64,000 bases of DNA from a virus, in IMG/VR virus record IMGVR_UViG_3300035670_000106, positions 1 to 64,000 of that record; one strand, 5' to 3'. Position numbers and translations under genes: made by a program. The notes under the pieces were generated by a model. It made no database searches and was not told where the DNA came from. It saw only the letters and a program-made list of their open reading frames with translations. Below are positions 1 through 27,700 of the stretch, piece after piece. Position 1 is the first letter of the stretch; the number at the start of each line of letters is the position of its first letter.

Positions 1-145
1 TAAAGGCTTTTTTCTGCAGCTAAGTCCTTGATTTTAAAGGCTTTAGCCTGGCTGAATGATAACGATTCTCATTCTAGCGTTAAACGATTTTGAGAATCAT
101 TCTCATCTGAATAGAAATAAAAAGGCCGGCTATTCGCCGGCCTTT
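1..145. repeat. Pre-early intergenic repeat block A (partial): IHF-like site, two Fur-like boxes, terminator
   Basis: 1-127 is identical to 1371-1497 and nearly identical to 3100-3226. Confidence 0.95.
119..145 (-). terminator. Intrinsic terminator
   Basis: Hairpin AAAGGCCGGC-TATTC-GCCGGCCTTT with T-tract on the minus strand, just after the stop at 152. Confidence 0.85.
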
Positions 146-151
146 ACGGTA

Positions 152-319
152 TTAATAAGCATCCTTCGCGTATTCAATTGCCTCTTTGGCAGTTTCAAAA
201 GGTGAAGCTCCTGATTTCCAGTAATCATAATACGCAAAATCAGGCAAATCCTCAGAGAAAAGCCCTATTTCATTAATCAATGCCGTATCAATAAAGCGCA
301 TGAATTCTTCAAAGCTCAT
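152..319 (-). CDS. Small acidic pre-early protein (55 aa)
   Basis: Start moved from 370 to ATG 319, which has a GAGG RBS and lies 2 nt after the stop of the 321-467 ORF. Confidence 0.75.
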   Translation of the reverse strand: MSFEEFMRFIDTALINEIGLFSEDLPDFAYYDYWKSGASPFETAKEAIEYAKDAY

Positions 320-320
320 T

Positions 321-467
321 TTAGAATTCCTCAGTATAATATTGCAATTGGATTCCCGGAATAGTGTCATTCTCTTTTCCGTTTTCTAATCCTGCGGATT
401 CGAGAGTTTCAAATTCTGTGAAGTCCTCCCAAGCCATTTCAAAGACTAAGTCATATTCAACAGTCAT
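321..467 (-). CDS. Very acidic small protein (48 aa, not in ORF track)
   Basis: Manual translation MTVEYDLVFEMAWEDFTEFETLESAGLENGKENDTIPGIQLQYYTEEF; GGAG RBS; fills the operon gap. Confidence 0.7.
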   Translation of the reverse strand: MTVEYDLVFEMAWEDFTEFETLESAGLENGKENDTIPGIQLQYYTEEF

Positions 468-481
468 TTTCTATTCTCCAA

Positions 482-682
482 TTAGGCATCTCGTAATTCA
501 ATAGTAACTTGAAGCCTGCAAAATACAGATTCTTTCATTTTCCAGTCGGTAATCTGTATTACTTCATTAGGTTCAAATAATCCAGTATTTGCCTTTATCC
601 ATTGCTTTGCTTCATAAATAGATTTGAAATCTATTTCTGCTTTATAAATTACGCCAATTTCTCTATAAATACGAGTCGTCAT
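482..682 (-). CDS. Hypothetical pre-early protein
   Basis: ORF with AGGA RBS inside the minus-strand operon. Confidence 0.7.
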   Translation of the reverse strand: MTTRIYREIGVIYKAEIDFKSIYEAKQWIKANTGLFEPNEVIQITDWKMKESVFCRLQVTIELRDA

Positions 683-729
683 TTTCTATTATCCTATGTG
701 CCGGGCAATTGCCCGGCGGTATTAGTTAA

Positions 730-1074
730 TCAAAGAGGCTTTGAATTGGCCAATGCCGTAAAGATTTTGGCCAATGCCGTTTTATTGGCTTTTGCAAGAG
801 ACTCGCATTCGGCCTCGGTAAAGCCGAGAATTGCACCAATTGCATCGGCAACAGCGTCCTTCTTTTGCGGCTTTTCGCCAGTTTTGCTAATATATTCCTT
901 TTTCTGGTAAATGCCCATCCGAGAGAGTTTAGCAACAATAGAGCGAGTAGTTTTTCCGAATTGAACCGCAAACGCTTCAACCGTTTCAGAAGTAGGATTT
1001 GCCAAATAGGCCTTCTCCAATTGGGTAGTCATTTCGTCGGAATAGTTGACGGTTTTAGCAGTAGTGGCAGCCAT
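730..1074 (-). CDS. T5 A2-like DNA-binding pre-early protein (copy 1)
   Basis: HTH-like segment 'KTTRSIVAKLSRMGIYQKKEY' and C-terminal 'ESLAKANKTAL' resemble T5 A2; pre-early context; GGAG RBS. Confidence 0.7.
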   Translation of the reverse strand: MAATTAKTVNYSDEMTTQLEKAYLANPTSETVEAFAVQFGKTTRSIVAKLSRMGIYQKKEYISKTGEKPQKKDAVADAIGAILGFTEAECESLAKANKTALAKIFTALANSKPL

Positions 1075-1145
1075 AATAAATTCTCCAATGAGGCGGGTTG
1101 GGTAGTAGGGGTTTCGTTGCCTCAGTTCGTCACCCCATGAAAAGA

Positions 1146-1174
1146 ATTATACGCGCCCAGGGTACGAAAGGCAA
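1146..1174 (-). promoter_or_regulatory. sigma70 promoter of the A2-like operon
   Basis: TTGCCT-N17-TATAAT on the minus strand. Confidence 0.8.
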
Positions 1175-1510
1175 GAACAATTTTTCAAAATCTTCAATAT
1201 ATATTTCTATCGTTCCCCAGGTCCTGATAGTTTCAGCCTATCGTCGAATCACATCGGCCAGGTTTTGTCAATTAATTTTAACTATCGCAAGCCAGGACAT
1301 GATAGAAAAATTTTTCTATTTACTTTTCGGCAGCAGCCGGGTACGCTAGCGGCGCCTAAGTCCTTGATTTTAAAGGCTTTTTTCTGCAGCTAAGTCCTTG
1401 ATTTTAAAGGCTTTAGCCTGGCTGAATGATAACGATTCTCATTCTAGCGTTAAACGATTTTGAGAATCATTCTCATCTGAATAGAAATAAAAAGGCCTAT
1501 TCGGCCTTTT
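1175..1510. repeat. Intergenic repeat block B: OxyR-like sites, TACGCT promoter, 2 IHF, 2 Fur, terminator
   Basis: IHF-like 1357-1369 and 1391-1403; Fur-like 1425-1443 and 1461-1475; hairpin 1490-1510. Confidence 0.9.
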
Positions 1511-1524
1511 AATTTTGCTTTTAA

Positions 1525-2220
1525 TTAAGCGGGTTTATACAAATCACGCATTACCCATTCTTTCCAATTAAACGCTTTATTAGTCTTTTCTTTCCAATTA
1601 CGTTTATTGACAATTGCAATAAGAATTGGCAATTCAAAATAAATAGCATCTTCTAATGCGGTATGGGGTTCCAATTCATTATTGCCAGTTACAAAGTGGG
1701 CCATTACTTCAGCTTTCGTCTGCATTACAATGTTTCCTGATTCGGTTTTATTGCCAAAATAATGGTTTTGCATTGCAAAAGCCAAATAACTTTTAGTATT
1801 GCAAAACGTATTAACTGCGGTATGCCAGAGGCAAAACTTTTCAGAAAAGATAGTCAAATCAATACCGCTATTTTGACATTTTCCAAAATCAAACGCCAAA
1901 TTATACGCAGTCAAAACCGGATTAAACTTCGCATTAGCTTTTTCAAGCCAGCGATTAATTGCATTAGCAGAAGCAATCATTCGCTGACCGCTTATAATCA
2001 TTTCATTATATTTAGCTTTCTTTTCAATTGCAGCATCTTTTGACCAGTATTCATTCCGAGAATCCCAAAACAATTCGTCATTCATAAAGTCTTTTACAAT
2101 AATAGCGCATTGCGAATGAATAACGCCTTTCTTATCTACAACAATTGCAGCAAAGTCAAAAACTTTATTGCTTTTCGTAGTTTCAGTGTCAATAATAAGG
2201 AAGAATTGTTTTTTAGCCAT
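1525..2220 (-). CDS. DEDDh 3'-5' exonuclease family protein
   Basis: ExoI 'IIDTETT', ExoII 'AYNLAFD', ExoIII 'HTALEDA'. Confidence 0.85.
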   Translation of the reverse strand: MAKKQFFLIIDTETTKSNKVFDFAAIVVDKKGVIHSQCAIIVKDFMNDELFWDSRNEYWSKDAAIEKKAKYNEMIISGQRMIASANAINRWLEKANAKFNPVLTAYNLAFDFGKCQNSGIDLTIFSEKFCLWHTAVNTFCNTKSYLAFAMQNHYFGNKTESGNIVMQTKAEVMAHFVTGNNELEPHTALEDAIYFELPILIAIVNKRNWKEKTNKAFNWKEWVMRDLYKPA

Positions 2221-2280
2221 TTTGTATTGCCTTTCGATTAAAAGTTTATTACCGGAATAAAGGCCCGGAATATCGGCCTA

Positions 2281-2754
2281 TCAATGCCCTTGTTTAGAAG
2301 GAACGTATACACCGCGAATATTAAAATAATCGCAAACCGCTTTTAAATAACTTGTATTATCCTCATAGAATACCGCGTTATTCCAAGCATTACGAAAGTT
2401 CTTAAGATTAAAAAACTTTTTCAATCCGTTAATCTTCAGAATACCGCCAGAAATAGAAGAACCCTCTTTTCTGCTGATGATATGATTGGGCATTCCTAGT
2501 TTGTCAATAATGAATCGCAAATCTTCTTCTCGAATAATTCTAGCAGTTGCAATAATAACATAACATTCAGGATCATTCAAATCAGCCTTATATTGCTCTG
2601 CCATTGGCAAAAGCGAATCAGAATATGCTTTATGCTCATTAGCACGCCAATAATCCAGATCAATTTTAGTACCGCATTCCAGAGTACGATAGCGGTGAAG
2701 GCTATCAACAATAGTACCATCCATATCATAAATTGCAATTCGTTTAATAGCCAT
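2281..2754 (-). CDS. dmp: Deoxynucleoside-5'-monophosphatase (T5 Dmp-like HAD phosphatase)
   Basis: HAD motif I 'YDMDGTIVDSLHR', 'IIATAR', 'FYEDN'; start at ATG 2754 after the repeated GGAG leader. Confidence 0.75.
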   Translation of the reverse strand: MAIKRIAIYDMDGTIVDSLHRYRTLECGTKIDLDYWRANEHKAYSDSLLPMAEQYKADLNDPECYVIIATARIIREEDLRFIIDKLGMPNHIISRKEGSSISGGILKINGLKKFFNLKNFRNAWNNAVFYEDNTSYLKAVCDYFNIRGVYVPSKQGH

Positions 2755-3240
2755 TTCATTTACTCCATAACGTGTTTCAGTGAGAGTCATTATACAGCAT
2801 GGCAGCCAGGATGCAAGAAAAATTTACATCTTTTTTCATTGTATGTTTCTATCGTTCTTCCAGGTCCTGATAGTTTCAGCCTATGAGCTGGCCCATAAAA
2901 AACGCTAGCCATCAATAGTACAAAATAACTATTGACAAGTAATGGATTGGAGAGTATAATTTTGGCGCCTCCAATTGATAACCGTTCTCATTTTGCCCCT
3001 ACCACACCAGCCAGGTTTTGTCAACAGAATAAAAATAAAAATATTTGTTGCATATTACCCGCTACGCGGGTACGCTTTGCGGCGCTAAGTCCTTGATTTT
3101 AAAGGCTTTTTTCCGCAGCTAAGTCCTTGATTCTAAAGGCTTTAGCCTGGCTGAATGATAACGATTCTCATTCTAGCGTTAAACGATTTTGAGAATCATT
3201 CTCATCTGAATAGAAATAAAAAGGCCTATTCGGCCTTTTT
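2755..3240. repeat. Intergenic repeat block C
   Basis: Shared leader and minus-strand promoter; OxyR-like motif; consensus plus-strand promoter 2932-2960; Fur-like 2974, 3154, 3190; IHF-like 3086, 3120; terminator 3219-3240. Confidence 0.9.
2932..2960 (+). promoter_or_regulatory. Perfect-consensus sigma70 promoter facing non-coding DNA
   Basis: TTGACA-N17-TATAAT; identical copy at 4377-4405. Confidence 0.85.
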
Positions 3241-3572
3241 TAATAAACCTGAGCATTAAAATCGTATTTTGTAATTGCTAAGTATTTTTCTCTATAATAT
3301 TGAAAAAACCTTGTATTATGATTGAATGGCAAATCAAGAGTGTCCTGATAGTAGTGTACCAATTCATGCGCTAATGTATGTTTTATATCTTCCAGGGAAT
3401 CAAACCAATTCAAATAGATTGTAATTTCATTATCAAAGTAATCTGCCATGTGCAAAGTGTGCAGTCTTTTTTGTCTAATAGTAATATCGGACAAATCTAG
3501 TTTATTATCAAATAGCTCATAATTAATGTATTCGAGCATACTATACAGAAAAGAATCAGCTACTTTTTTCAT
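3240..3572 (-). CDS. SprT-like zinc metalloprotease
   Basis: HExxH 'LAHELVHY' plus downstream His 'HNTRF'; ATG 3572 overlaps the upstream micro-ORF stop (ATGA). Confidence 0.8.
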   Translation of the reverse strand: MKKVADSFLYSMLEYINYELFDNKLDLSDITIRQKRLHTLHMADYFDNEITIYLNWFDSLEDIKHTLAHELVHYYQDTLDLPFNHNTRFFQYYREKYLAITKYDFNAQVY

Positions 3573-3649
3573 CTCGTCCACCAGTCAATTAATACAAGTG
3601 TAATAATTACAATACCGCAAATAATACCGAGTTCATGTGCGTATAACAT
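3569..3649 (-). CDS. 26-aa single-TM micro-peptide (not in ORF track)
   Basis: MLYAHELGIICGIVIITLVLIDWWTR; overlaps both neighbours; ATGA coupling to the SprT-like gene. Confidence 0.5.
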   Translation of the reverse strand: MLYAHELGIICGIVIITLVLIDWWTR

Positions 3650-3845
3650 AATTCCAAATTCCAATAATGTTAGCAACAAAAAATGTAAGATTCAAAAGTA
3701 AAAGAGGATTATCTTTTACTTTAATTGCAACGTAAAGCCAAGCACCAGAACCAATTAAAAAGAATATATAACCAATTCCAGCAAAAGTCATTGCAACAAG
3801 AAAAGAGCCTATAATGCTTGCAATTGTCCCAATCCACTTCATCAT
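3633..3845 (-). CDS. Small 3-TM membrane protein (PnuC/SemiSWEET-like appearance)
   Basis: Three hydrophobic segments in 70 aa. Confidence 0.7.
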   Translation of the reverse strand: MMKWIGTIASIIGSFLVAMTFAGIGYIFFLIGSGAWLYVAIKVKDNPLLLLNLTFFVANIIGIWNYVIRT

Positions 3846-3973
3846 TTTTTAATCCAATTCAAAAAAGCCGTTACAATAACTTCTAAAGTTGATATTTTAC
3901 GCCTTTTTTCAAAGGTTTGCAAGTACATTTTATAATTATCTAACGCTTTAATCTGTTTCACAGTGTAACTCAT
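3842..3973 (-). CDS. 43-aa basic peptide (not in ORF track)
   Basis: MSYTVKQIKALDNYKMYLQTFEKRRKISTLEVIVTAFLNWIKK; preceded by a fourth, partial copy of the shared leader; ATGA overlap with the next gene. Confidence 0.6.
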   Translation of the reverse strand: MSYTVKQIKALDNYKMYLQTFEKRRKISTLEVIVTAFLNWIKK

Positions 3974-4017
3974 TTCATTTACTTCATAACGTGTTAAAAT
4001 AATTATATGTTTTATAA

Positions 4018-4200
4018 TTATTTTTTAGATACCTGTTCAATAATTACATTAAGATCAGCATATCCTTCAGAAACTTTATTATATGCTTCTTCCGTATTAG
4101 AGGCCTCTACACGAATATTATAATATTCGTATTTGCTGAAACCATTACAGGAGAAGTCGGAAGGAACCGGAAAACCTACACGAGCCACAAATTCAAACAT
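4018..4200 (-). CDS. Hypothetical pre-early protein
   Basis: ATG 4200 follows the shared GGAG leader. Confidence 0.7.
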   Translation of the reverse strand: MFEFVARVGFPVPSDFSCNGFSKYEYYNIRVEASNTEEAYNKVSEGYADLNVIIEQVSKK

Positions 4201-4605
4201 TTCATTTACTCCATAACGTGTTTCCATGTAAGTCATTATATAGCATGGCAGCCAGGATGCAAGAAAAATTTACATCTTTTTTCATTGTATGTTTCTATCG
4301 TTCTCCAGGCCCTGATAGTTTCAGCCTATGAGCTGACCTATAAAAAACGCTCGCCGTCAATAGTACAAAATAACTATTGACAAGTAATGGATTGGAGAGT
4401 ATAATTTTGGCGCCTCCAATAGGGACAGACTATCGCCCCCCTAATCAGACGATAGAAAAATTTATAATTGACGGGTAAATCAAAGGCAGGTACGCTACGC
4501 GGCGCTAAGTGTTTGATTCTAAAGGCTTTTTTCTAAGCCTAAGTCCTTGATTCTAAAGGCAAAAAGCCTGGCACGGTTCCTGCTTTCACAAGAACCATGC
4601 CATTC
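4201..4605. repeat. Intergenic repeat block D
   Basis: 4201-4420 closely repeats 2755-2975; OxyR-like 4419-4466; IHF-like 4506 and 4540; sigma54-like site within hairpin 4569-4602. Confidence 0.9.
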
Positions 4606-4607
4606 AA

Positions 4608-4952
4608 TTACAGAACCAAATTATCCGAATTCAATTTAGATTCTTTTACACAATCAAGAATCTTATTCAATGCCGTTTTATTGGCTTTGCTAATACTCTC
4701 AATTTCAGCTTCCGTAAATCCCAAAAGCATTCCGATTTGATCCGCAATTGCATCCTTTTTAATAGGGGCATTCCCAGTTTTACTAATGTATTCCTTCTTC
4801 TTATATACACCGCTTCTACTCAATTTTGCAACAATAGAGCGAGTAGTTTTAGAAAAGATATTAGCCAAATCTTCTACGCTAGTTCCATTCTGATATTGTT
4901 CGATCAGAGAAGCAGTCATTTCTTCAGTGTAGTTTACAGTTTTTTCAGCCAT
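4608..4952 (-). CDS. T5 A2-like DNA-binding protein (copy 2)
   Basis: Paralog of 730-1074 (KTVNY.EEMT, KTTRSIVAKLSR, KKEYISKTG, LGFTEAE.ES..KANKTAL); likely start MAEKT. Confidence 0.7.
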   Translation of the reverse strand: MAEKTVNYTEEMTASLIEQYQNGTSVEDLANIFSKTTRSIVAKLSRSGVYKKKEYISKTGNAPIKKDAIADQIGMLLGFTEAEIESISKANKTALNKILDCVKESKLNSDNLVL

Positions 4953-4967
4953 TTTAATTCCTTTCAA

Positions 4968-5135
4968 TTACAGAACAAAAGAGATAACAACTTTAATGAA
5001 GTAGGTAAACCGATTGCTATTATCCTTGAAGTATTCTGATTCTTTTGCATTCAGTGCTTCTTCAAAAGAATCATAATCCTGAATAACGGATTCAGTATAC
5101 CCGTCAAATTTAATTACTTCAAAGCGTTTTTCCAT
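4968..5135 (-). CDS. Hypothetical pre-early protein
   Basis: ORF with AAGGA RBS; likely start MEKRF. Confidence 0.6.
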   Translation of the reverse strand: MEKRFEVIKFDGYTESVIQDYDSFEEALNAKESEYFKDNSNRFTYFIKVVISFVL

Positions 5136-5146
5136 TTCATTTCCTT

Positions 5147-5293
5147 TCAATCATATTGAATATCAATAATCGTATTGTTTCGCGTAATTACATAACAACA
5201 AACGCGACCAAAAGTAACCATATACACACCATTACCACGAAATGAAATGTTAATCATTTCATTCGGAAATTTAGCTTTAATCAACTCAGTCAT
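5147..5293 (-). CDS. Hypothetical pre-early protein
   Basis: ATG 5293 follows the shared leader. Confidence 0.65.
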   Translation of the reverse strand: MTELIKAKFPNEMINISFRGNGVYMVTFGRVCCYVITRNNTIIDIQYD

Positions 5294-5490
5294 TTCATTT
5301 ACTCCATAACGTGTTTCCATGTAAGTCATTATACAGCATGGCAGCCAGGATGCAAGAACAATTTACATATTTTTTCATTGTATGTTTCTATCGTTCTCCA
5401 GGTCCTGATAGTTAAAAACTAAACTTGCACACAAGCAAGAACTATGCCAACTGGGGCGGTTATCAGACTGAGAATCATTCGCATTACCAG
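5294..5490. repeat. Intergenic repeat block E
   Basis: Shared leader and promoter (5328-5355), OxyR-like 5377-5422, sigma54-like 5434-5450, Fur-like 5469-5483. Confidence 0.85.
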
Positions 5491-5510
5491 TGGCCCCACC
5501 GCGCGCGATA

Positions 5511-5580
5511 AATTAGAAATTCTATGGAAGCCAGATAGGTGTATAATTAGAAATTCTATGGTAGGTGTATTCTATGGAAG
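5511..5580. repeat. Short direct repeats at the pre-early/late junction
   Basis: AATTAGAAATTCTATGG x2, TAGGTGTAT x2, TTCTATGG x3. Confidence 0.85.
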
Positions 5581-5602
5581 ATTAGCATCAAAATTTTTAA
5601 AC

Positions 5603-5631
5603 TTGACTTAAGCTACCCATCATGTTATAAT
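5603..5631 (+). promoter_or_regulatory. Late sigma70 promoter (terminase operon)
   Basis: TTGACT-N17-TATAAT with extended TG and an A/T-rich UP element. Confidence 0.85.
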
Positions 5632-5662
5632 AGATACATCCTAACAAAATTGTATTTATATT

Positions 5663-6145
5663 ATGTTACCAACACAACCGCCCGTATATTCACCAGCGCA
5701 GTCAGTAGTTATATCTCCAGAAGCGCTGGAAATAGCCAATATGTACCTTACTACTCAAAATGTCCAAAAAACGGCCCAAGAGCTCGGAGTAGCACCTGAG
5801 TTAGTGTCCGAAACTTTAGATAGACGAGAAGTACGAGCATATATTGATAATCTCTTTCTAGACGCAGGATTCAATAATCGGTTCAGGATGAGAGAAGTAA
5901 TGGATGCCATTATTAGCAAAAAGTTGCAGGAACTCGACGAGGCAGAGGTCGGAAGCAGCAAGGATATTGCAGATCTTCTAGCACTGTCACATAAAATGAC
6001 AATGGATATTCTCGACCGTCAGATCAAATTAGAGACACTTAAAGCAAGTAATGGAGTTAAAACACAAGTTAATATGCAAGTGAACGAATTTGGAGGAGAT
6101 ACCAAATACGCAGCACTCATATCAAAGTTACTCGGAGCTAAGTAA
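5663..6145 (+). CDS. terS: Terminase small subunit
   Basis: T5-like TerS: 160 aa, 'ISPEALEIANMYL', 'SSKDIADLL'; upstream of TerL. Confidence 0.85.
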   Translation: MLPTQPPVYSPAQSVVISPEALEIANMYLTTQNVQKTAQELGVAPELVSETLDRREVRAYIDNLFLDAGFNNRFRMREVMDAIISKKLQELDEAEVGSSKDIADLLALSHKMTMDILDRQIKLETLKASNGVKTQVNMQVNEFGGDTKYAALISKLLGAK

Positions 6146-7375
6146 TTGTTTACAAATGCAAGAGATGAAGCAGTATTATTATACAATAAAGGCACAAAGT
6201 TATTAGAGCAGAAGAAACCAGAAAAAGCTTTAAGCTACTTTAAAAAAGTATTAAAAATATACAAGTGTAAAGAAGCTTACACAAATGGTGGAAACTGCTT
6301 AAGAATGCTCGACCGTGATACCGAGATGTTTAAATGGTACGAACTTGCACTAGATCCTAAAACCCCTTTTTTAGAGCCTACAAGTCAGACAGATTTACAT
6401 GCTCGCAATAATTTAGGGTTGGCGTATTTCACTTATGGTAATGACAATAAAGCTATAGAGCTTTATACTCAGTGTATAAAAGAAAAAGAAGATTTTTGGG
6501 AAGCATGGTGGAACTGTTCCACCGCCACCCTTAGAAAAGCTTCCGCAGGAGAAGTAAGTCTATTTCCTAAAGGGTGGGAGATGTATGAAGCTAGGTTCCT
6601 GAAAGGGGAGTCTATAAAGTTAAAAAATAGAAGAGAAAACTTACCCTATTGGGATGGTACAAGTAGCGGAGAAGACATTGTAATCTTAGTAGAGCAAGGC
6701 ATTGGTGATAGTATAATGTTTGGAAGGTATATCACTAAGCTACAAGAAAAGTTCTCTAGAGTATTTGTACAATGCGATGCTCAGTTAGATAATTTGTTCA
6801 AGCATATAGGAGCTATACCTATAAGAGACCCTATTGAAATTTCTTCTGATTCTTTAGTGGCAGTACCTATGTGTAGCTTAGGAAAGTTTTTTGATTTAGT
6901 AGAAGCAGAATGGTTAAAAAGTTATGGAACGGCTCATGAATTTCCTAAAGATAGTTATAACATTGGTGTTGTATGGTCTGGTAGCCCTTCCCATGCTAAC
7001 GATAGGCATAGGAGCATTTATCACGGTAAGCTTAGGGGGCTTAGTCGCTTCGGTAGGCTTTACAATCTCAATCCTTCTGTTGATACTCCTTCGTGGATTA
7101 ATAAACTTCCTATATCGACATGGGATGATACCGTCCGGTACGTTAGGGGATTGGATCTTGTTATCTCTGTGGATACGTCGATAGTACACCTATGCGGAAC
7201 TTTAGGTGTAGAGTGCTGGATGATGCAGCCCTATAAAGAAACAGATTTTAGATGGGGGCATGGAGAATCAGTTTGGTATGACAGCGTAAAAATTTATAAT
7301 AATCCGCAGTCGTGGGAAACTGTAATTTCTAGGGTAAGTAGAGACTTGGAGGCTCGCGTTGCTAACAATAAGTAA
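6146..7375 (+). CDS. TPR-containing glycosyltransferase (GT9/GT-B-like)
   Basis: N-terminal TPRs; 'EQGIGDSIMFGRY', 'GVVWSGSPSH', 'LDLVISVDTSIVHLCGTLG'; TTG start with GGAG RBS. Confidence 0.85.
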   Translation: MFTNARDEAVLLYNKGTKLLEQKKPEKALSYFKKVLKIYKCKEAYTNGGNCLRMLDRDTEMFKWYELALDPKTPFLEPTSQTDLHARNNLGLAYFTYGNDNKAIELYTQCIKEKEDFWEAWWNCSTATLRKASAGEVSLFPKGWEMYEARFLKGESIKLKNRRENLPYWDGTSSGEDIVILVEQGIGDSIMFGRYITKLQEKFSRVFVQCDAQLDNLFKHIGAIPIRDPIEISSDSLVAVPMCSLGKFFDLVEAEWLKSYGTAHEFPKDSYNIGVVWSGSPSHANDRHRSIYHGKLRGLSRFGRLYNLNPSVDTPSWINKLPISTWDDTVRYVRGLDLVISVDTSIVHLCGTLGVECWMMQPYKETDFRWGHGESVWYDSVKIYNNPQSWETVISRVSRDLEARVANNK

Positions 7376-8666
7376 ACCAGGAATAAATGCTGATTTTATT
7401 GAAGAGCTAGATGTTGCCGATAGGTTTATAAAACTACCTATTGATAAGTACTTGCAACTTCTGCCTTCGCCAGACAGAAATGGGTCCGTATTTGATAACT
7501 TAAATAGACCCCAAATTGCACTAATCAACGCAATTAACTCGCCATCATACAGATTTGTATGTGCTGCGTTAAGTCGACGCTTAGGAAAAACTTATATAGC
7601 AAATGTTATAGCACAGCTAGTTCTGCTAATACCTGATGTAGAAGTACTAATTATGTCGCCTAACTACTCTTTATCAAATATTAGTTTCGAGTTACAGCGT
7701 AAGCTAGTGTCAACTTTTGATTTAGAAGTAACTAGAGATAACGTTAAAGATCGCGTTATAGAGCTATCAAACGGATCAGTAATTCGTGCAGGCTCCGTCA
7801 ATCAAGTAGATAGTTGCGTTGGACGTTCCTATCAGCTAATCTTGTTTGATGAGGCGGCTCTATCCGCTGATGGGGAGGCAGCATTTAATGTATCGTTACG
7901 ACCAACACTAGATAAACCAAATAGTAAAGCTATATTTATCTCGACACCTCGTGGAAAGAAGAACTGGTTCTCTAGGTTTCATGCTCGTGGATTTAGCAAA
8001 GAGTACCCTGAATGGATCTCCCTAACTGCTGACTGGACAGAGAATACCAGAATGTCTGCAAAAGACGTTGAAGAAGCTCGTAGAATTATGTCAGCTGCGG
8101 AATTCGAACAGGAATATATGGCCTCCTTCAATTCTTACCAAGGGCAGATTTACGCACTATCGAATGAAAACATTATTGAAGAACTACCTCCCGGCAAATA
8201 CGAATTCTTTGGCGGATTAGACCCTGGATATAAGGATCCAACTGCTTTCGTAGTTATAGCATACAATTTAGAAGAAGACTTCTATGTTGTAGTTGATGAC
8301 TATAAAGAAGCTGAAAAGAATACTAGAGAGCACGCCTTTGAGATAAAGAACTTAATTAATAAATGGAATGTTGATGCTATCTTTATTGATAGCGCTGCTC
8401 CGCAGTTCTCGGCTGACTTAGCATATCTATATGATATAGCTACGCTAAAAGCTAAGAAGCAAGTGCTAGAAGGTATTGCCTTCTGCCAAACTATAGTTCA
8501 GCAGGATAAGTTAAAAGTAATGGCCCACTGTCACTGGACTATTGATGCACTCGATCAATACCAATGGGACCCAAATGAAGCATTGGTAAAAGAAAAGCCT
8601 CTACATAATGAAGCTTCGCATATTGCAGATGCTCTTAGATACGCTTTATACACCTTTACTATCTAA
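7359..8666 (+). CDS. terL: Terminase large subunit
   Basis: Walker A 'SRRLGKT', Walker B 'ILFDEAA', 'ISTPRG', RNase H-like 'GLDPG' and 'HIADALRY'. Confidence 0.95.
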   Translation: MLTISKPGINADFIEELDVADRFIKLPIDKYLQLLPSPDRNGSVFDNLNRPQIALINAINSPSYRFVCAALSRRLGKTYIANVIAQLVLLIPDVEVLIMSPNYSLSNISFELQRKLVSTFDLEVTRDNVKDRVIELSNGSVIRAGSVNQVDSCVGRSYQLILFDEAALSADGEAAFNVSLRPTLDKPNSKAIFISTPRGKKNWFSRFHARGFSKEYPEWISLTADWTENTRMSAKDVEEARRIMSAAEFEQEYMASFNSYQGQIYALSNENIIEELPPGKYEFFGGLDPGYKDPTAFVVIAYNLEEDFYVVVDDYKEAEKNTREHAFEIKNLINKWNVDAIFIDSAAPQFSADLAYLYDIATLKAKKQVLEGIAFCQTIVQQDKLKVMAHCHWTIDALDQYQWDPNEALVKEKPLHNEASHIADALRYALYTFTI

Positions 8667-10082
8667 GACCCATACATCATTACCAGAATCATATACAGGG
8701 TAGAAACCTTCTTTAGCCATAATTTCTTTTTCAGTTAGCTCTTCAGAGTAGCTATCAGGAAACATATCTTTTAGTAAGTATTTTTGGCACTGGTACCTAC
8801 TAAGACGCTTACTGTATCCCCTATAATAAGCGTAATTAGGTCTGCTAGTATGAGATAGAAAAAACCCAAGAGATTTATAAAGATCACCATTAGACCATCT
8901 TCTATCTGAATAAGATATAATACTTCCCTTATGCTCCTTTCTGAAACTATTGAGTAATTTCGAAGCTCCTCCAACTACATTTATTCCAATTTTGGAACAA
9001 TAGCGAACTAGTTCATAATTATAAGAATTATTAAATCTAGGAGTATTAAAAGTCATTACCGCTATTAACTCTCCGTCTAATACTAATCCATAGTTATACT
9101 TAGTTGGAGATCCTGCCCCTTGTAAGTGATTGTTTACCAAGAAATCCCTAGGAAAGCCTATCTTAACTATAGAGCATTTTCTAGCATACACTTTATCATT
9201 TAAATTCAGCAAGCTACTTATTTTAGATCTAACTATACTTTGTTTTAGTCTCCATTCGTCTTCATTAATATGTACTAGTCTATACCCTACTTCTTTTATT
9301 TTTTCAGTTTTAAAATTAAAAGAATACTCATCTTCTTTATGCCAGTATATACCATTATACTCAAAAGCAATCCCTAAGTCTGGTAATACTATATCTAATT
9401 CCTTACCTCCTAATATACTTCTATCATTACGTTCAATCCATCCAGGGTATACAGAAAAAATAAATTTATATAATTCTTCCTCACCCTTTGATACATTAGG
9501 AAAACAAGTACGACAAGTACTGCCAGAATTATCTGTTAGTAGAGCATTTGGAATAATATCCCACTCATGCCCACAGCTACCTCTTACAGTAACCCTACTT
9601 TTAGCACTTATATATTTACCTACTACTTTAAGATTAAATTTATCAAAAACTTCCTTTTCAAAAAACTCCTGAGGCTTAGTACCAGTAGTCACAGGTATTC
9701 CAGCACATATTCTACAAATACTATTAACACCTTTTTCTAGAATTTTTGTTGGAATAATATCCCACTCATGCCCACAGTCGCCACGTACCTTAATACTAGT
9801 TTTAGCAGTTTTATATTCTTCTAACAAAGTTAGTTTAGGGTACTTAGAAAGTAATTCACTCTTAAATGTTTCATTAGTTTTTCTATTATGTGCTACTCTA
9901 GGACTACATTTAGGACATCTTGACTTATCTCCTCGATTAACTAAATTACCATAAATAGCATTCCAAGAAGTATCACAAGTATTACACTTTAAAAGTATCT
10001 TATTTTTAGAACCTAAGTACTCGCTAATTACACTAATATTAGGATATAAGCTATGTACTTTATCAATATACTTATTTGACAT
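8646..10082 (-). CDS. Hef-like endonuclease: Zn-ribbon repeats + PD-(D/E)xK domain + GNAT/Mom-like domain
   Basis: CxxC/CGHEW repeats; 'ELDIVLPDLGIAFEYNGIYWH'; 'NHLQG', 'ELVRYCS', 'GGASKLL', 'SYSDRRWSNGDLY'. Confidence 0.75.
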   Translation of the reverse strand: MSNKYIDKVHSLYPNISVISEYLGSKNKILLKCNTCDTSWNAIYGNLVNRGDKSRCPKCSPRVAHNRKTNETFKSELLSKYPKLTLLEEYKTAKTSIKVRGDCGHEWDIIPTKILEKGVNSICRICAGIPVTTGTKPQEFFEKEVFDKFNLKVVGKYISAKSRVTVRGSCGHEWDIIPNALLTDNSGSTCRTCFPNVSKGEEELYKFIFSVYPGWIERNDRSILGGKELDIVLPDLGIAFEYNGIYWHKEDEYSFNFKTEKIKEVGYRLVHINEDEWRLKQSIVRSKISSLLNLNDKVYARKCSIVKIGFPRDFLVNNHLQGAGSPTKYNYGLVLDGELIAVMTFNTPRFNNSYNYELVRYCSKIGINVVGGASKLLNSFRKEHKGSIISYSDRRWSNGDLYKSLGFFLSHTSRPNYAYYRGYSKRLSRYQCQKYLLKDMFPDSYSEELTEKEIMAKEGFYPVYDSGNDVWVLDSKGV

Positions 10083-12498: not shown

Positions 12499-14415
12499 AT
12501 GAATAGTAAGATTTTATATCTTAATCACGTCTTTGAGAAGAGTGCCTCGGGAGAAGATAGCCTAAGTATCGAAGGATACGCTAACTGCACCACTGTTGAT
12601 CGCAGCGGTGATATTATCCCAATGACCGCATGGTCAAAGGCTTTGGATAACTATTTAAAGAACCCAATTATTTTAGCCTACCACAAACATTCTCAGCCAA
12701 TAGGAAAGATGGTTGAGCATAGGGTAGACGACAAAGGATTGTGGATAAAAGCCAAAATCTCTGCAGCCGCAGGAGATGTTTATAATTTGATTAAGGATGG
12801 TGTACTTACAGCATTTAGTGTTGGTTTTATAGTTAAAGATGCCACCTATGATGCAGTAACAGATCTTTTTGTAATTAAAGATCTAGAGCTACTAGAAGTT
12901 TCTGTAGTTTCTGTACCAGCTAATCAAGATAGTACATTTAGTCTTTCTAAATCATTTGAAAATACAGAAGACTATAATAATTTTAAGAATCAATTTGCTA
13001 AGACGATCGAAACAGCTAAAGGGCTAGATTCATCTGATGAGCAGAAATCTGATCAATCAAAAAAGGAATGGAATATGGATCCTAAAGAATTAGAACAATT
13101 ACTTGCTAACGCTGCTGAGAAGGCTGCTGCTGCTGTTTATGAGAAGCAAGCTGCTGAGAAGGCTGCTGCTGAGAAGGCTGCTAAGGAAGCAATCGAATTA
13201 GAAGCAAAAATCAAATCTGTAGTTTCTACAGTTGATACAGGCGCTGAGCGTCTAATGGCTGATATTGAGAAGCGTTTCGCTGAACAGGCCGACACACAGA
13301 AATCAGCTCTAGCTGGTCTAGAAGCTGCTATTAAAGAGAAAGCTGCCGAACTTGAGGCCATTCAAAAGTCTAAGATGCAGTTCTCTGACAAACAAGGTTC
13401 AGATACTATTGAGTATGCTGACAAAGAGAAGGCTGTTCTTCTTTCAAAAATTACTCGTAAAGCTGTGGATGAGACCAAATTTGGTCGTACATTGGTTGAA
13501 AAAGCCAGTCTATCTCCTCACCAGCCTACTAATGGTTCAGATCGTTGGGAAACAGAAGTTTCCAACAACATGGAAAATGAGATCCGTAGAAAGCTAGTTA
13601 TGGCTCCTCTATTCCGTAATCTAAACATGCAAACCAATGTTATGAAGATTCCTGTCAATCCTGAAGCAGGTTTCGCAACATGGATGGCTAACTCAGCTTT
13701 CGGTACTACAGCTTCTCCTGGAGCTACCCAGTTACATACCTTCAACGAGATTACTCTAAGTGCATATAAAGTTGCTACTAACGAGTATCTAAACTACGAA
13801 GAAGAAGAAGATTCACTGATCGTTCTTCTGCCTATCATCCGTGATGCTATGATTCGTAGAGTTGCTAAGGCTGTTGATAAGGCATTCCTATTGGGTGCTG
13901 GTGCAGGCTCTGATCCTGTCAAGGGTAGCGCACTTTATGATGCTACCTCAGCTGTTACAGCTTCAGTTACAGCTTCTGCCTCTATCTCTAACCTACGTGC
14001 TCTACGTAAAGATCTAGGTGCATGGGGTCTTGACCCTTCTGAACTAGTTTATGTCGTTTCTACCGAAGTTTATTACGATCTTCTAGATGACACACTGTTC
14101 CAGACCATGGACAAAGTAGGTTCAGTTGCTACTCTATTAACTGGTCAAGTAGGCTCAGTTGGTAACACCCCAGTTATCGTTTCTGATGCTTTCCCAACAA
14201 AGGCTTCTGGTACAACTTCTGCAGCTACCAATATCGGTGCAATCTGTATTGCTCCTGGTAACTTCATCGTTGGTAACCAGCGTGGTCTACGTCTAGATAC
14301 TCAGGATCTAGTTGAGACACAGCGTAAAGTTATGGTCGCTTCTCTACGTACCGGTATGACACAAATCTCTACCGCTAACGGTATGGGCGTTTCAACTTTC
14401 CGTTGGACAGTCTAA
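12499..14415 (+). CDS. Prohead protease fused in frame to major capsid protein
   Basis: N-terminal HK97 protease motifs ('AYH', 'FSVGF', 'EVSVVSVPANQ'); coiled-coil delta domain; HK97 capsid fold; internal AAGGA RBS and ATG at 13075. Confidence 0.9.
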   Translation: MNSKILYLNHVFEKSASGEDSLSIEGYANCTTVDRSGDIIPMTAWSKALDNYLKNPIILAYHKHSQPIGKMVEHRVDDKGLWIKAKISAAAGDVYNLIKDGVLTAFSVGFIVKDATYDAVTDLFVIKDLELLEVSVVSVPANQDSTFSLSKSFENTEDYNNFKNQFAKTIETAKGLDSSDEQKSDQSKKEWNMDPKELEQLLANAAEKAAAAVYEKQAAEKAAAEKAAKEAIELEAKIKSVVSTVDTGAERLMADIEKRFAEQADTQKSALAGLEAAIKEKAAELEAIQKSKMQFSDKQGSDTIEYADKEKAVLLSKITRKAVDETKFGRTLVEKASLSPHQPTNGSDRWETEVSNNMENEIRRKLVMAPLFRNLNMQTNVMKIPVNPEAGFATWMANSAFGTTASPGATQLHTFNEITLSAYKVATNEYLNYEEEEDSLIVLLPIIRDAMIRRVAKAVDKAFLLGAGAGSDPVKGSALYDATSAVTASVTASASISNLRALRKDLGAWGLDPSELVYVVSTEVYYDLLDDTLFQTMDKVGSVATLLTGQVGSVGNTPVIVSDAFPTKASGTTSAATNIGAICIAPGNFIVGNQRGLRLDTQDLVETQRKVMVASLRTGMTQISTANGMGVSTFRWTV

Positions 14416-24709: not shown

Positions 24710-27700
24710 ATGGAATGGCATAATAAATATATAGGTATCCCTTACCAGGAAAAGGGAAGAACTGCTGAGGAAGGATTAGACTGCTGGGGATTGGTACGTC
24801 TAGTGTACGATAAAGAGTTTGATATTACCTTACCTAGCTATGTAGAAGCATACGAAGCGGAAGATATTGAGAAAACAGCTGAGTTAATATCTATTCATAA
24901 AGAGGGTTGGGAGCCGGTAGAACTGCCTCAAGCCGGTGATGTAGTTCTATTCTCTATATGTGGACAAGAGGGTCATGTAGGTATAGTAGTTAGGCCCGGC
25001 TTATTTCTGCATGTTATAGAGGGGCAAGCTTCAGTAATAGAATCATATACCAGTGCTAAATGGAAAAAACGAGTAGTAGGTACTTTTAGGTATAATGAGT
25101 TAAGTAAAACAAGAATGTCCGTTGTACCTAGTCCTTTGTCTAATATAAGAATCAATCTTAATGTACCAGAGGGGTCAGACCTATACACAGCTATATCTCT
25201 TATTAAACTACAGTTCCCAGAGTACAGAGATATTATAGAAAAATCAGGTACAGTAATACTAGTTAATAGTGTTGTAGTACCGGAAGATAAGTGGAAAGAT
25301 ATAGTATTAAAGTCAACTGATGTTGTGGAGTATAGAGCAGTTGCTGGCAAAAGCGGTATACTAAGAATTTTTGCAGTAATACTAATAGCTGTAGTTGCGT
25401 GGTATGCGGCACCTTATTTAGCTGGTGCAGGATCCTTTGGCAGTGCTGGTTGGGGGGTGGCAGCTACTTCTACCTTAACAGGACTGTCTGTTACCGCAAC
25501 AGCCAATATAATAGCCGCCGGCATAAATATGGTAGGGGGACTACTATTAAACGCTCTATTCCCTATTAGACCGCCACCACCTCCATTAGATCCCGGAGAT
25601 GCTGAAGAATACAAGATGGTTACAGGCCAGTCAAATAATCCTCAGAAGTATGGTAGTATACCTTTAGTACTGGGAAAAGTTAAATTTTCTCCGCCAGCAG
25701 CAGCTATACCGTATTATGAAAACAAAACTAATTATAACTATTTACACCAACTACTTTGTTGGGGATATGGGCCCTTGGAGATAACAGACTTAAAACTTGA
25801 CGAGAAACCCCTAGGTAGTTGGGGAGAGCTTGAATATGTCACGTATGATGGGATTAATGGTAGTTATGAAGACGTAGAAAAGTTATACCCTAGGGAAGTT
25901 GTTCAAAAAGTAGTTAATCAGGAGCCCTACTATAAGGACTTAAGAATAGGTAAATTTAATACTGATATTAATTACGCTAATTTTGGAATTAGTTGGAGTG
26001 GTAGCAGTATTACTGTAACTACAGATAAAAACCACGGATTGTATGTTGGTGACTATGTTAGTTTAAATAAGGTATACCTACCAACAAAAACACATAGAAG
26101 TGCTAAGTTTTTATCTGTAGCTTTAACAGCCTCAGGCATATCGTCAAAGTTAGCAGCTGAGGAACAGCCTGTAGATGCAGTTGTAGCTCTTGGCATTATT
26201 TCTGCAGTAAATTCTGATACCTCTTTTATTTTAGATATATCAGAGGATCAAGCAAACTTTTTAGGTACTTATGGGGCTTCTGGGTCCAACTCTACTTTAA
26301 TAAATCAGATTGTATCAACTAATAAAATAGAAACAGTTATAGATGAGCCCGTAGATAGTATAGTAATAGATATTTTATTCCCTCAAGGGTGTAGAAAGAT
26401 TATAACAGAAGGCAAGGCCGCGGGGAGTATTCGTGAAGCTAATCCTAGTCATATGATTCTATTTAAGAAACTAGATAGGGAAACTGGAGAGGAAATAGAC
26501 GATGAATGGTTATCTTCCCCATCCTCAATTTTAAACTATATTAATCTATCCTCTAATTCTTTAACATTATCAACTCCTACTAGTATAGTGAGTAAGTTTT
26601 CCATTAATCAATATGACGGATATAGCCCATTTAGTCTTAATCCTTGGGGGAGCGTATATTTAAGACCTTGGTATTATGATACTAGTAATATATTTAATTA
26701 TGCTGTAGTGTACTTAGAAGAAAATAGTACTACGTATAATGTAGTGTATTCTAGTGTTACAACAGATCCTTTAGGAGAAACTAAACCATTACAGTCGGAT
26801 AATGTTTTAGGTGCTTGGTACTACATTACTGATACCAGGGGAGACTATACGTATGTTACATACTATGGTGATAATAATGATAATAATTATGCTTATTACT
26901 ATAACAGAGAGGAGGTAGGGTATGCTAGAAACTTTAAGTCTCTAACACTTGCTAAAGCAGAGGCAGAGAACTTAGGGAAAATTGTAGCTATATACAAACT
27001 ACAAGGTAATAGTGTAATATCGGAAGTATATGATAACTTGTCAGAAAATTATGAAAGTCTAACTTCTGCTACTTATGTACAAAGTAGTGGTATAGTAACT
27101 TTAACTGTAAGTACTAACAAGCCTGTGTTAGAAGGTAGTATATTATATCTAGAATTTAATACATCAGATGCTAATAGGCCTGCTAACGGATACTATAGAG
27201 TAGATGAGATAACCAGCTACAGTACCTCTGAAGTAGTATGCAAGTTAAAATCTACAAACAATAATACCTCTTCCGGCTCAGTAGATTTAATAAAAGCCTT
27301 AAAGTTATCGCAAAGTATACTTACTGTAGTTGACTCATCTTATTCTCCTCTTCTAACAAAAATATCTGGTACTACAGTTACTTTTGATAAGGGATACAAG
27401 GTATACGCACCAAGATTTAGTAGTGAAAAAATAGGGGGTAGTACTTCAGGTTTTTATAGGTATAAGGACGCTTTCAATGTAACATATACGAGAGTAACTA
27501 GCAGACTTTTTAAGTATAAAGTACTAATATTTAGAACTTCTGAACCTACTCATGATTATACATCAACCTATAAGTATCAAAACCTCTCTAAAAGTATTAT
27601 TCAAACTATTACTGGCATAAAAAGTAATGATGCTATTTCTTATGAAAATATAAGAAATAGAGATAATGAAAAAGTGCCGCTAGCATTAACAAGTGTTAAA

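What the first reader, a model, noticed from the sequence alone, without database searches (positions are those of the whole stretch)
1..5490. Candidate host-regulator decoy/loading array in the pre-early (first-injected) DNA
Seen: five non-coding blocks (1-145, 1175-1510, 2755-3240, 4201-4605, 5294-5490) are assembled from reusable parts. Together they hold 7 IHF-consensus sites, 8 Fur-like boxes, about 6 OxyR/LysR-like motifs, 2 sigma54-type GG-N10-GC sites and at least 5 plus-strand sigma70 promoters pointing at no ORF. The IHF and Fur pairs lie just beyond the operon terminators, 200-300 bp from the next gene promoter, so they are poorly placed to act as operators. Established: A2- and Dmp-like genes mark the T5 first-step-transfer region. 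Inference: the array is built to bind abundant host proteins. It could titrate Fur/OxyR/sigma54/RNAP to rewire iron and oxidative-stress physiology, coat and protect incoming DNA, or help ratchet DNA entry. I know of no described system with this combination.
Basis: partly seen in the sequence, partly recalled or inferred. Interest (0 to 1): 0.92.

Follow-up and report, generated by a model that had tools for sequence, protein, structure and literature searches.

The report
Fur- and IHF-site cassettes, T5-like phage
The gene-free blocks are repeated control cassettes in the early-gene region of an uncultured T5-like phage, and they carry iron-regulator-type palindromes like those found where phage T5 pauses DNA injection, plus paired DNA-bending-protein sites.

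Summary
Five gene-free blocks between leftward small-gene operons are built from shared modules.

- **IHF:** 7 of the genome's 9 IHF-consensus matches lie here.
- **Fur:** 8 of 11 Fur-type 19-mers lie here.
- **Rightward promoters:** five have no ORF behind them.
- **Not supported:** the sigma54 and OxyR readings.

The region is probably T5-type early DNA, but this is not proven. It has a Dmp-like gene and only marginal A2-like genes. No A1 and no terminal repeat were found in an 86%-complete contig.

The Fur-type palindromes share their core with the repeat units of phage T5's annotated injection-stop signal. They also cluster in the terminal repeats of T5 and a Vibrio relative. They match published bacterial Fur-box consensuses. 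An unrelated coliphage with no A2 homologue carries the same array.

My reading is that the cassettes recruit host Fur, IHF and RNA polymerase in cis to control phage early DNA. I do not read them as a titration decoy. Binding is untested.

This scan made the T5 Fur-box link earlier on other genomes. I found no paper that makes it.

The parts
1..151 (.). Block A. A truncated cassette at the contig start, holding one IHF-type unit, two Fur-type boxes and a terminator.
   Evidence: D1 copy 1-127. The contig begins inside the module.
21..33 (-). IHF-consensus core AATCAAGGACTTA. On the same strand an A6 tract lies 9 nt upstream.
   Evidence: sequence
55..73 (.). Fur-type 19-bp palindrome, box 1 (1 mismatch to the 9-1-9 pattern). 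Other copies lie at 1425-1443 and 3154-3172.
56..83 (-). Leftward promoter-like site TTAACG-N16-TATCAT lying on box 1. Other copies lie at 1426-1453 and 3155-3182.
89..107 (.). Fur-type palindrome, box 2, with core TGAGAATCATTCTCA. Other copies lie at 1459-1477 and 3188-3206.
121..145 (.). Terminator hairpin that ends the leftward operon.
1146..1174 (-). Leftward operon promoter TTGCCT-N17-TATAAT, serving the A2-like gene at 730-1074.
1207..1241 (.). Inverted repeat CTATCG-N13-TGATAG-N7-CTAT upstream of the leftward promoter. Other copies lie at 2849-2884, 4295-4329 and 5388-5411.
1282..1305 (.). The same arms (CTATCG...GATAG) with a different spacer, directly upstream of the rightward promoter. 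A further copy lies at 4430-4455.
1319..1347 (+). Rightward promoter P(+)2: an A/T tract, a -35-like hexamer, 17 nt, then TACGCT, followed by GGCGC. Other copies lie at 3048-3076 and 4468-4496.
1357..1403 (-). Pair of IHF-type sites 34 bp apart (1357-1369 and 1391-1403). Other pairs lie at 3086-3132 and 4506-4552.
1490..1510 (.). Bidirectional terminator hairpin. Another copy lies at 3218-3240.
2752..2816 (-). Shared 5' leader (GGAG Shine-Dalgarno and ATG) plus leftward promoter TTGCAT-N16-TGTATAAT. Other copies lie at 4198-4262 and 5291-5355.
2932..2960 (+). Perfect rightward promoter TTGACA-N17-TATAAT with no ORF behind it. Another copy lies at 4377-4405.
2974..2992 (.). Variant Fur-type box (3 mismatches), 14 nt after the perfect promoter.
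4569..4602 (.). Long hairpin with TGGCAYG arms.
5467..5485 (.). Fur-type box (2 mismatches) in the gap between the last cassette and the terS promoter.
2281..2754 (-). Dmp-like gene. The start is probably the ATG at 2752-2754, behind the shared leader.
730..1074 (-). A2-like small DNA-binding protein. A paralogue lies at 4608-4967.

Best explanation
The five blocks are copies of one modular cis-acting cassette. The cassettes punctuate the leftward early operons of a distant, uncultured T5-like siphophage.

**Layout, read along the gene strand**
1. A terminator that closes the upstream operon.
2. Two Fur-type 19-bp palindromes, one lying on a weak leftward promoter. These are present in three of the five blocks.
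3. Two IHF sites 34 bp apart.
4. One or two rightward sigma70 promoters that fire back toward that terminator.
5. A conserved inverted repeat.
6. The strong leftward promoter and shared leader of the next operon.

**How I think it works**
The cassettes recruit host proteins onto the phage DNA itself. Iron-loaded Fur would sit on the palindromes and shut the weak promoter. IHF would bend the DNA. RNA polymerase would load at the facing promoters. Together these would set and insulate early transcription, and perhaps the handling of entering DNA. They would not drain these proteins from the host.

**Shown**
- The anatomy, the repeats and the local enrichment.
- Sharing of the palindrome core with the injection-stop repeats of T5.
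- The match to published Fur-box consensuses.

**Inferred**
- Actual binding by Fur and IHF.
- Promoter activity.
- That this DNA enters the cell first.
For: **Modules.** They are real and limited to this region.

**Fur type**
- 8 of 11 genome places lie in 1-5490. TGAGAATCATT with up to 1 mismatch gives 11 of 11 hits in 1-5700.
- Box 1 read on the minus strand and box 2 differ at 2 and 3 of 19 positions from the Xanthomonas Fur-box consensus printed in PMC1790865.
- A. baumannii Fur boxes share the core.
- The same core forms the repeat units inside T5's annotated injection stop signal.
- In T5, 34 of 34 strand-hits fall in the two terminal repeats, which make up 16.8% of the genome. In Vibrio phage Ceto, 8 of 10 forward hits fall in the two ~8.3-kb ends.
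- The Phapecoctavirus phage ukendt has 4 such palindromes at exact 29-bp steps in gene-free DNA, and tblastn finds no A2 homologue. This points to a host binder.
- In 303,707 bases of relatives' loci, 3 of 3 places scoring at least 15/19 against the classical consensus lie 71-189 bp from an IHF-type unit.
- Box 1 lies on a promoter-like site. Chen et al. report the same for 303 of 363 E. coli Fur clusters.

**IHF type**
- Among module copies in relatives, the TTR and TCAA parts and the A/T flank stay fixed, while the four N positions vary. The putative hairpin partners do not covary.
- The cassette segment is 85-92% identical to relatives, against 70-76% for the flanking genes.

**Rightward promoter.** In 14 module copies, only positions 2 (A) and 6 (T) of the -10-like hexamer are invariant. 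A TTGACA-like hexamer sits 17 nt upstream, behind an A/T tract.

**Strains in another study.** They keep D1 unchanged (0 differences in 155 nt), while nearby genes differ by 6-12%.
Against: - No binding, transcription or DNA-entry data exist. No RNA run holds this DNA.
- The IHF count rests on copies of one repeat unit, and the relatives were found through that very 20-mer. Its invariance in them is therefore partly by construction.
- The Fur-type boxes are not universal in the lineage. Two of 5 relatives' records show no convincing match, including the one rated 100% complete, which has 0 hits against 7 control hits. An essential role is therefore unlikely.
- Some conserved family palindromes have centres that fit Fur poorly. 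An example is the form shared by T5 6098 and Ceto 4196, which sits 30 nt before Ceto's A2 gene. A phage protein could bind these.
- Fur boxes resemble promoters by composition, so the overlap with a promoter-like site is weak evidence.
- Part of the strain-level conservation may reflect mosaic exchange. For example, 4569-5319, which is coding, is also nearly unchanged.
- The host is unknown, so I cannot check its Fur and IHF.
Confidence: 0.5

Rival explanations
1. The palindromes are operators for a phage protein, most likely the small A2-like DNA-binding protein, and the likeness to Fur boxes is coincidence or mimicry. The protein would auto-regulate early operons and act at the injection-stop DNA.
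For: - The window encodes two A2-like paralogues, colinear with T5 A2 and Ceto gp13. The best-kept stretch is a helix-like segment.
- Palindromes lie upstream of A2-type genes in the window's block B, in L008 and L078, and in Ceto 30 nt before gp13.
- In T5 they cluster where A1 and A2 are thought to act.
- The variant shared by T5 6098 and three Vibrio phages fits Fur poorly.
Against: - Phage ukendt has a 4-unit array and no A2 homologue by tblastn: 0 candidates, against E 3.5e-18 in Ceto.
- The A2-like proteins here are only 20% identical to T5 A2, yet the DNA core is the same.
- The boxes match independent bacterial Fur consensuses, flanks included.
Confidence: 0.2
2. The rightward promoter-to-terminator units are genes for small non-coding RNAs of about 110-280 nt, present in 3-5 copies. 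The 34-nt repeats and palindromes would then act as RNA.
For: - Conserved promoter features.
- Perfect consensus promoters with no ORF behind them.
- Terminators follow, at 3218-3240 and 4569-4602.
- In relatives the hairpin is followed by a T-rich run on this strand.
- Fold z-scores are -2.5 and -2.4.
Against: - No Rfam match reaches a family threshold. The best is 28 bits against a threshold of 47.
- The 22-mer hairpin partners do not covary.
- The z-scores are modest and come largely from the terminator and the palindromes.
- The 3' parts are not alignable between relatives.
Confidence: 0.12
3. The array is a decoy that titrates Fur, OxyR, sigma54 and RNAP to rewire host iron and stress physiology, or that coats or ratchets the incoming DNA.
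For: - Sites of the Fur and IHF types are dense, and several strong promoters drive no gene.
- Operator arrays on multicopy DNA can titrate Fur. This is the principle of the Fur titration assay, which I recall and did not read here.
- Late in infection, replicated genomes could offer thousands of sites.
Against: - At entry there is one genome with 7-8 sites of each kind.
- The OxyR and sigma54 motifs do not hold up.
- T5-type pre-early functions degrade host DNA and shut off host genes (annotation of A1). That would make rewiring of host regulons pointless, though no A1 was found here.
- Two of 5 relatives lack the Fur-type boxes.
- Non-specific binders would be enough for coating or ratcheting.
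Confidence: 0.07
4. The motifs are chance matches in AT-rich DNA, multiplied by duplication of promoter and terminator cassettes.
For: - The total count of promoter-like sites is not above shuffles: 24 against 21.3 +/- 5.7.
- Matches of at least 13/19 to the classical Fur consensus are common genome-wide, with 95 strand-hits.
- The IHF sites are copies of one unit.
Against: - With repeat copies collapsed, the Fur-type places remain enriched, p 4e-4.
- The same core recurs in non-homologous contexts in T5, Vibrio phages, ukendt and three uncultured relatives.
- The control pattern gives 3 hits against 22.
Confidence: 0.03

Closest known systems
Untranslated repeat regions of the phage T5 first-step-transfer DNA, including the injection stop signal (GenBank NC_005859 annotation; Davison, bioRxiv 10.1101/866236)
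   Same: - Gene-free repeat and palindrome blocks lie among leftward early genes that include dmp.
- The same palindrome core, AATGAGAATCATT, is present.
- The blocks lie just beyond terminators.
- A host-protein-binding model has been proposed for this DNA.
   Different: - There is no DnaA-box cluster here: 1 of the genome's 11 TTWTNCACA matches lies in the region, inside a gene.
- T5's first 11 kb has no IHF-consensus match, whereas this phage has paired ones.
- The cassette is repeated after each operon instead of forming one large block.
- Terminal-repeat status, A1 and two-step transfer are not shown.
Chromosomal Fur operator clusters (Chen et al. 2007, PMC2189734; Xanthomonas Fur box, PMC1790865; A. 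baumannii Fur boxes, PMC3055841)
   Same: - A 19-bp 9-1-9 palindrome of the same consensus.
- Boxes occur in pairs.
- They overlap a sigma70-like site.
   Different: - No iron gene lies downstream.
- The boxes sit after operon ends in a lytic phage.
- Box spacing is 34 bp, not the 3- or 6-base overlaps reported for E. coli clusters.
High-affinity IHF sites with an upstream A-tract, and IHF-site-bearing extragenic repeats found past the ends of E. coli operons (both recalled, not read here)
   Same: - The core WATCAANNNNTTR with an A6 tract 9 nt upstream.
- Placement just beyond operon ends.
- A reiterated element.
   Different: - The sites are in phage DNA, as tandem pairs at a 34-bp pitch.
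- They are fused to a rightward promoter.
- The likeness to the named E. coli and lambda sites rests on recall.
Gene-free Fur-type array of Escherichia phage ukendt (Phapecoctavirus, MN850565)
   Same: Four palindromes of the same type lie in a 1.26-kb untranslated stretch.
   Different: - It is an unrelated myophage with 29-bp spacing.
- It has no IHF-type units and no A2 homologue.

Membership tests
T5-type first-step-transfer / terminal-repeat control DNA | Lies in a long direct terminal repeat that enters the cell first | not testable with these tools
   The contig has no end repeat, is rated 86% complete and 'linear', and starts inside a module. Only assembled contigs are public.
T5-type first-step-transfer / terminal-repeat control DNA | Flanked by the pre-early genes dmp, A1 and A2 | tested here: inconclusive
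   The dmp-like match is clear (E 4e-11). The A2-like match is marginal. A1 was not found by tblastn in 90 kb.
T5-type first-step-transfer / terminal-repeat control DNA | Gene-free blocks of direct repeats, inverted repeats and palindromes | tested here: met
T5-type first-step-transfer / terminal-repeat control DNA | Shares sequence units with the T5 injection-stop repeats | tested here: met
   The core AATGAGAATCATT with up to 1 mismatch gives 4 of 4 genome hits in 1-5700. T5 has 8 of 9 hits in the two injection-stop copies.
T5-type first-step-transfer / terminal-repeat control DNA | Paired DnaA boxes (Davison) | tested here: not met
   One TTWTNCACA match in the region, inside a gene.
Fur operator | 19-bp palindrome matching a Fur-box consensus | tested here: met
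Fur operator | Overlaps the promoter it controls | tested here: inconclusive
   A promoter-like site (9/12) lies on box 1, but its activity is unknown.
Fur operator | Bound by host Fur in a metal-dependent way | not testable with these tools
   The host is unknown and there are no binding data.
IHF site | WATCAANNNNTTR with an A/T-rich flank | tested here: met
IHF site | Consensus positions conserved and N positions free among relatives | tested here: met
   Copies listed. Caveat: the relatives were found through the 20-mer itself.
Sigma54 promoter | TGGCAC-N5-TTGC at -24/-12 | tested here: not met
   0 strict matches in the genome. The looser hits overlap a sigma70 promoter or a hairpin arm.
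OxyR site | Four ATAG-type elements at 10-bp phasing | tested here: not met
   Only CTAT-N16-ATAG-N7-CTAT is present.
Small RNA gene | Promoter, terminator, and a conserved or covarying structure or known family | tested here: inconclusive
   Promoter and terminator are present. There is no Rfam family. Fold z is about -2.4.

The most novel reading that the evidence does not exclude
Host Fur, helped here by IHF, docks on conserved palindromes of the first-entering DNA. It would form the long-missing protein part of the T5-type injection pause, or an iron-status checkpoint on early infection. If so, this device is kept from coliphage T5 and Vibrio phages to an uncultured subsurface lineage, and it has been copied by unrelated large phages.
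Probability: 0.2. Interest if true: 0.85.

Novelty: new variant of a known kind. Interest (0 to 1): 0.6.

Why it matters
What stops T5 DNA transfer after the first ~8% of the genome has been open for decades. The stop region is known only as a tangle of repeats.

A phage that shares only about 41% capsid identity with T5-like phages keeps the same Fur-type palindrome core, here joined to paired IHF-type sites. This suggests the units are functional protein sites, and it names concrete host proteins to test in T5 itself.

It also raises the possibility that lytic phages read host iron status through Fur.

The cassettes show how early operons can be assembled from reusable promoter, terminator and operator parts.

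Tried and rejected
**Searches that found nothing useful**
- DNA searches of the phage collection found nothing, in near and distant modes.
- tblastn of the A2-like protein found nothing. The 231-aa protein matched only Enterococcus phages weakly.
- Rfam gave no match at a family threshold.
- No RNA holder is listed for this DNA. Only assembled contigs could be laid, so ends, nicks, depth steps and expression could not be read.

**Ideas considered and dropped**
- *Virion RNA polymerase with hairpin promoters (N4 or crAss type).* The three giant proteins are a tape measure, a tail-fibre J type and one with no family match. No polymerase was found.
- *T5-type nick sites.* RGCGCRGG (consensus taken from a passage in PMC3517423) occurs once in the genome and not in the region.
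- *Type III antitoxin-like repeat RNA.* There are only two 34-nt units, no toxin gene is adjacent, and the pattern of variation fits a DNA site better.
- *A tRNA fragment or a CsrA-type RNA site as the origin of the 22-mer.* I checked this by eye. Neither fits.
- *Sigma54 and OxyR*.

**Limits of other calls**
- The genome-collection scan for the 22-mer gave 83 stretches. With 18 specified bases I estimate about 17 or more by chance in that collection. My only conclusion is that a perfect-hairpin version with a T run occurs in several bacteria, twice right after tRNA genes.
- The BF23 paper (PMC10644984, passages only) gave no nick motif.
Davison's supplemental description of the repeats could name factors that I did not see.

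Full report
**What the DNA is**

The window is the first 64 kb of a single 90,095-bp contig with 37% G+C. It comes from a subsurface metagenome. CheckV rates it 86% complete, and it has no end repeats.

It encodes terS, terL, a portal, a fused protease-capsid protein, a major tail protein, a 1902-aa tape measure and two giant tail proteins. The capsid protein is about 41% identical to those of Vibrio T5-like phages, and it matches over a thousand Demerecviridae-type records. No phage record matches at the DNA level. It is therefore a distant, uncultured T5-like siphophage.

**The observation**

The blocks are built from shared modules:
- D1, 3 copies at 98-100% identity.
- D2, 3 copies.
- D4, 3 copies.
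- D5, 2 copies.

Along the gene strand a full cassette reads as follows:
1. A terminator.
2. Two 19-bp palindromes.
3. Two IHF-consensus cores 34 bp apart, each with an A6 tract 9 nt upstream.
4. A rightward promoter-like unit.
5. In blocks C and D, a perfect rightward TTGACA-N17-TATAAT.
6. An inverted repeat, CTATCG-N13-16-GATAG.
7. A leftward promoter with a shared leader, GGAG-N-ATG.

The contig begins inside a D1 copy, so the array may continue beyond the left end.

**Counts**

| Motif | In region / in genome | Control or caveat |
|---|---|---|
| IHF consensus | 7 of 9 | All seven are copies of one unit |
| Fur-type 9-1-9 pattern, up to 3 mismatches | 8 of 11 places | 22 strand-hits vs 3 for the reversed pattern; p 4e-4 with copies collapsed |
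| Perfect consensus promoters | 2 of 4 | None |
| Strict sigma54 pattern | 0 of 0 | Looser GG-N10-GC hits lie on the leftward sigma70 promoter or a terminator arm |
| OxyR four-element layout | absent | None |
| DnaA boxes | 1 of 11 | Not enriched |

**Is it T5-type early DNA?**

- The 169-aa protein matches T5 Dmp: 30% identity over 98 aa, pairwise E 4e-11. Genome tblastn gives 3e-8.
- The two 114-119-aa proteins are colinear with T5 A2 and Ceto gp13, but only 20% identical.
- No A1 homologue was found. About 14% of the genome may be missing.
- As in T5, the region adjoins the terminase genes.

So 'pre-early, first-injected' is a reasonable inference. It is not a result.

**The key link**

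I scanned T5's left repeat as a comparison. The window's Fur-like core turned out to be the core of the repeat units inside T5's annotated injection stop signal, next to its major nick.
- In T5, 34 of 34 strand-hits of the 19-mer pattern lie in the two terminal repeats, which make up 16.8% of the genome.
- In Vibrio phage Ceto, 8 of 10 forward hits lie in the two ~8.3-kb ends.
- pVp-1 and PVo5 show similar local clusters.
- One Ceto unit is nearly the same as the window's box 1.
- The T5 injection-stop segment is conserved in 559 phage records.

**Is it Fur?**

- The boxes differ at 2-3 of 19 positions from the Fur-box consensus derived for Xanthomonas. They share their core with listed A. baumannii Fur boxes.
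- Escherichia phage ukendt is an unrelated myophage. It has four such palindromes at exact 29-bp steps in a 1.26-kb gene-free stretch and three more elsewhere, and no A2 homologue. That argues for a host binder and against A2.
- Against this, some conserved family palindromes have centres that fit Fur poorly and sit just upstream of A2 genes.
- Two of 5 uncultured relatives, including a complete 112-kb genome, have no convincing box.

I therefore hold Fur binding as likely but unproven, and the role as non-essential.

**IHF units and relatives**

The 20-mer of the unit occurs in 33 IMG/VR stretches. Several are true relatives with homologous genes and multiple cassettes. In these the cassette segment is 85-92% identical, against 70-76% for the genes.

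Variation among copies falls on the four N positions of the IHF consensus. The would-be hairpin partners do not covary.

One caveat applies. These relatives were found through the 20-mer, so its constancy in them is partly built in.

**Rightward promoters**

In 14 module copies, only positions 2 and 6 of the -10-like hexamer are invariant. These are the two positions I recall as most critical for sigma70. A TTGACA-like hexamer lies 17 nt upstream, behind an A/T tract, and the spacer usually holds a GC hairpin whose arms change together.

The promoters face a terminator 110-280 nt away, with no ORF between. They may make small RNAs, or they may oppose read-through from the upstream operon. Fold z-scores are only about -2.4, and Rfam gives nothing.

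**Population data**

Contigs from a second study carry strains whose genes differ by 6-12% in places: 51 differences in 1483-1893, 42 in 3463-3805, and 39 in 2309-2655.
- D1 at 3085-3239 has 0 differences in 155 nt.
- 1275-1510 has 4 in 236 nt, none inside the boxes.
- Some coding stretches are also nearly unchanged. Mosaic exchange is therefore part of the picture.

**Mechanism and the decoy idea**

The cassettes look like operator, architectural and insulator units that work in cis. Box 1 lies on a leftward promoter-like site. This is the usual way Fur represses: Chen et al. report that 303 of 363 E. coli clusters overlap promoters.

Titration by one entering genome is implausible on recalled protein numbers, and nothing here supports it. 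Titration late in infection is not excluded.

**Literature and earlier notes**

- Davison's preprint describes T5's three untranslated repeat regions and proposes that host DnaA binds there. I read the abstract, section 3.3 and term passages. It never mentions Fur.
- No paper in the library holds both 'injection stop signal' and 'Fur'. A search for 'phage T5' together with 'Fur box' listed none with both.
- After my own T5 comparison I found that this scan had made the same T5 Fur-box link on other genomes several times. Those are unchecked AI notes. What I tested agrees with them.

Noticed in passing
window 1-127 and genome end 89,990-90,095: The contig starts inside a D1 module, and its last bases hold a GGCGC like the cassette start. 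The assembly probably broke at the repeat, so more cassettes or genes may lie beyond.
   Followed up: partly
L123 (Escherichia phage ukendt, MN850565) 27697-27802 and 38089-39042: An unrelated myophage carries four Fur-type palindromes at exact 29-bp spacing in a 1.26-kb gene-free stretch, and three more about 10 kb away. A relative of the window phage (the record of L001, places 19080 and 19109) has a pair at the same 29-bp step.
   Followed up: partly
L027, L024, L008 (uncultured relatives): In these relatives the slot after the IHF-type unit holds repeats of a different palindrome, with core CTTATATAAG, instead of Fur-type boxes. The slot seems to accept different operator arrays.
   Followed up: partly
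L035, L104 and other bacterial loci: A perfect-hairpin version of the 22-mer followed by a T run occurs in several bacteria, twice right after tRNA genes. It looks like a shared terminator or a part of a mobile element.
   Followed up: no
window 2932-2969 and 4377-4414: In the source sample, a contig of about 13-fold higher depth (267 against 20) carries the same 38-nt perfect-promoter segment in different flanks. Another abundant genome shares this part.
   Followed up: no
window 5511-5530 and 5545-5564: Two direct repeats (AATTAGAAATTCTATGG core) lie between the last cassette and the terS promoter at 5603-5631. This may be a packaging or repeat-border signal.
   Followed up: no
window 6146-7375 and 8646-10082: A 409-aa ORF with no PHROG match sits between terS and terL. 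A 478-aa HNH/homing endonuclease gene lies on the opposite strand just after terL.
   Followed up: no
window 12499-14415: The head protease and the major capsid protein appear fused in one 638-aa ORF. T5 and the Vibrio phages annotate two genes.
   Followed up: no
window 1207-1241, 1282-1305, 4430-4455; L013: The inverted repeat CTATCG...GATAG keeps its arms with three different spacers. It always sits just upstream of the A/T tract of a promoter on either strand. It is a candidate operator for an unknown regulator.
   Followed up: partly
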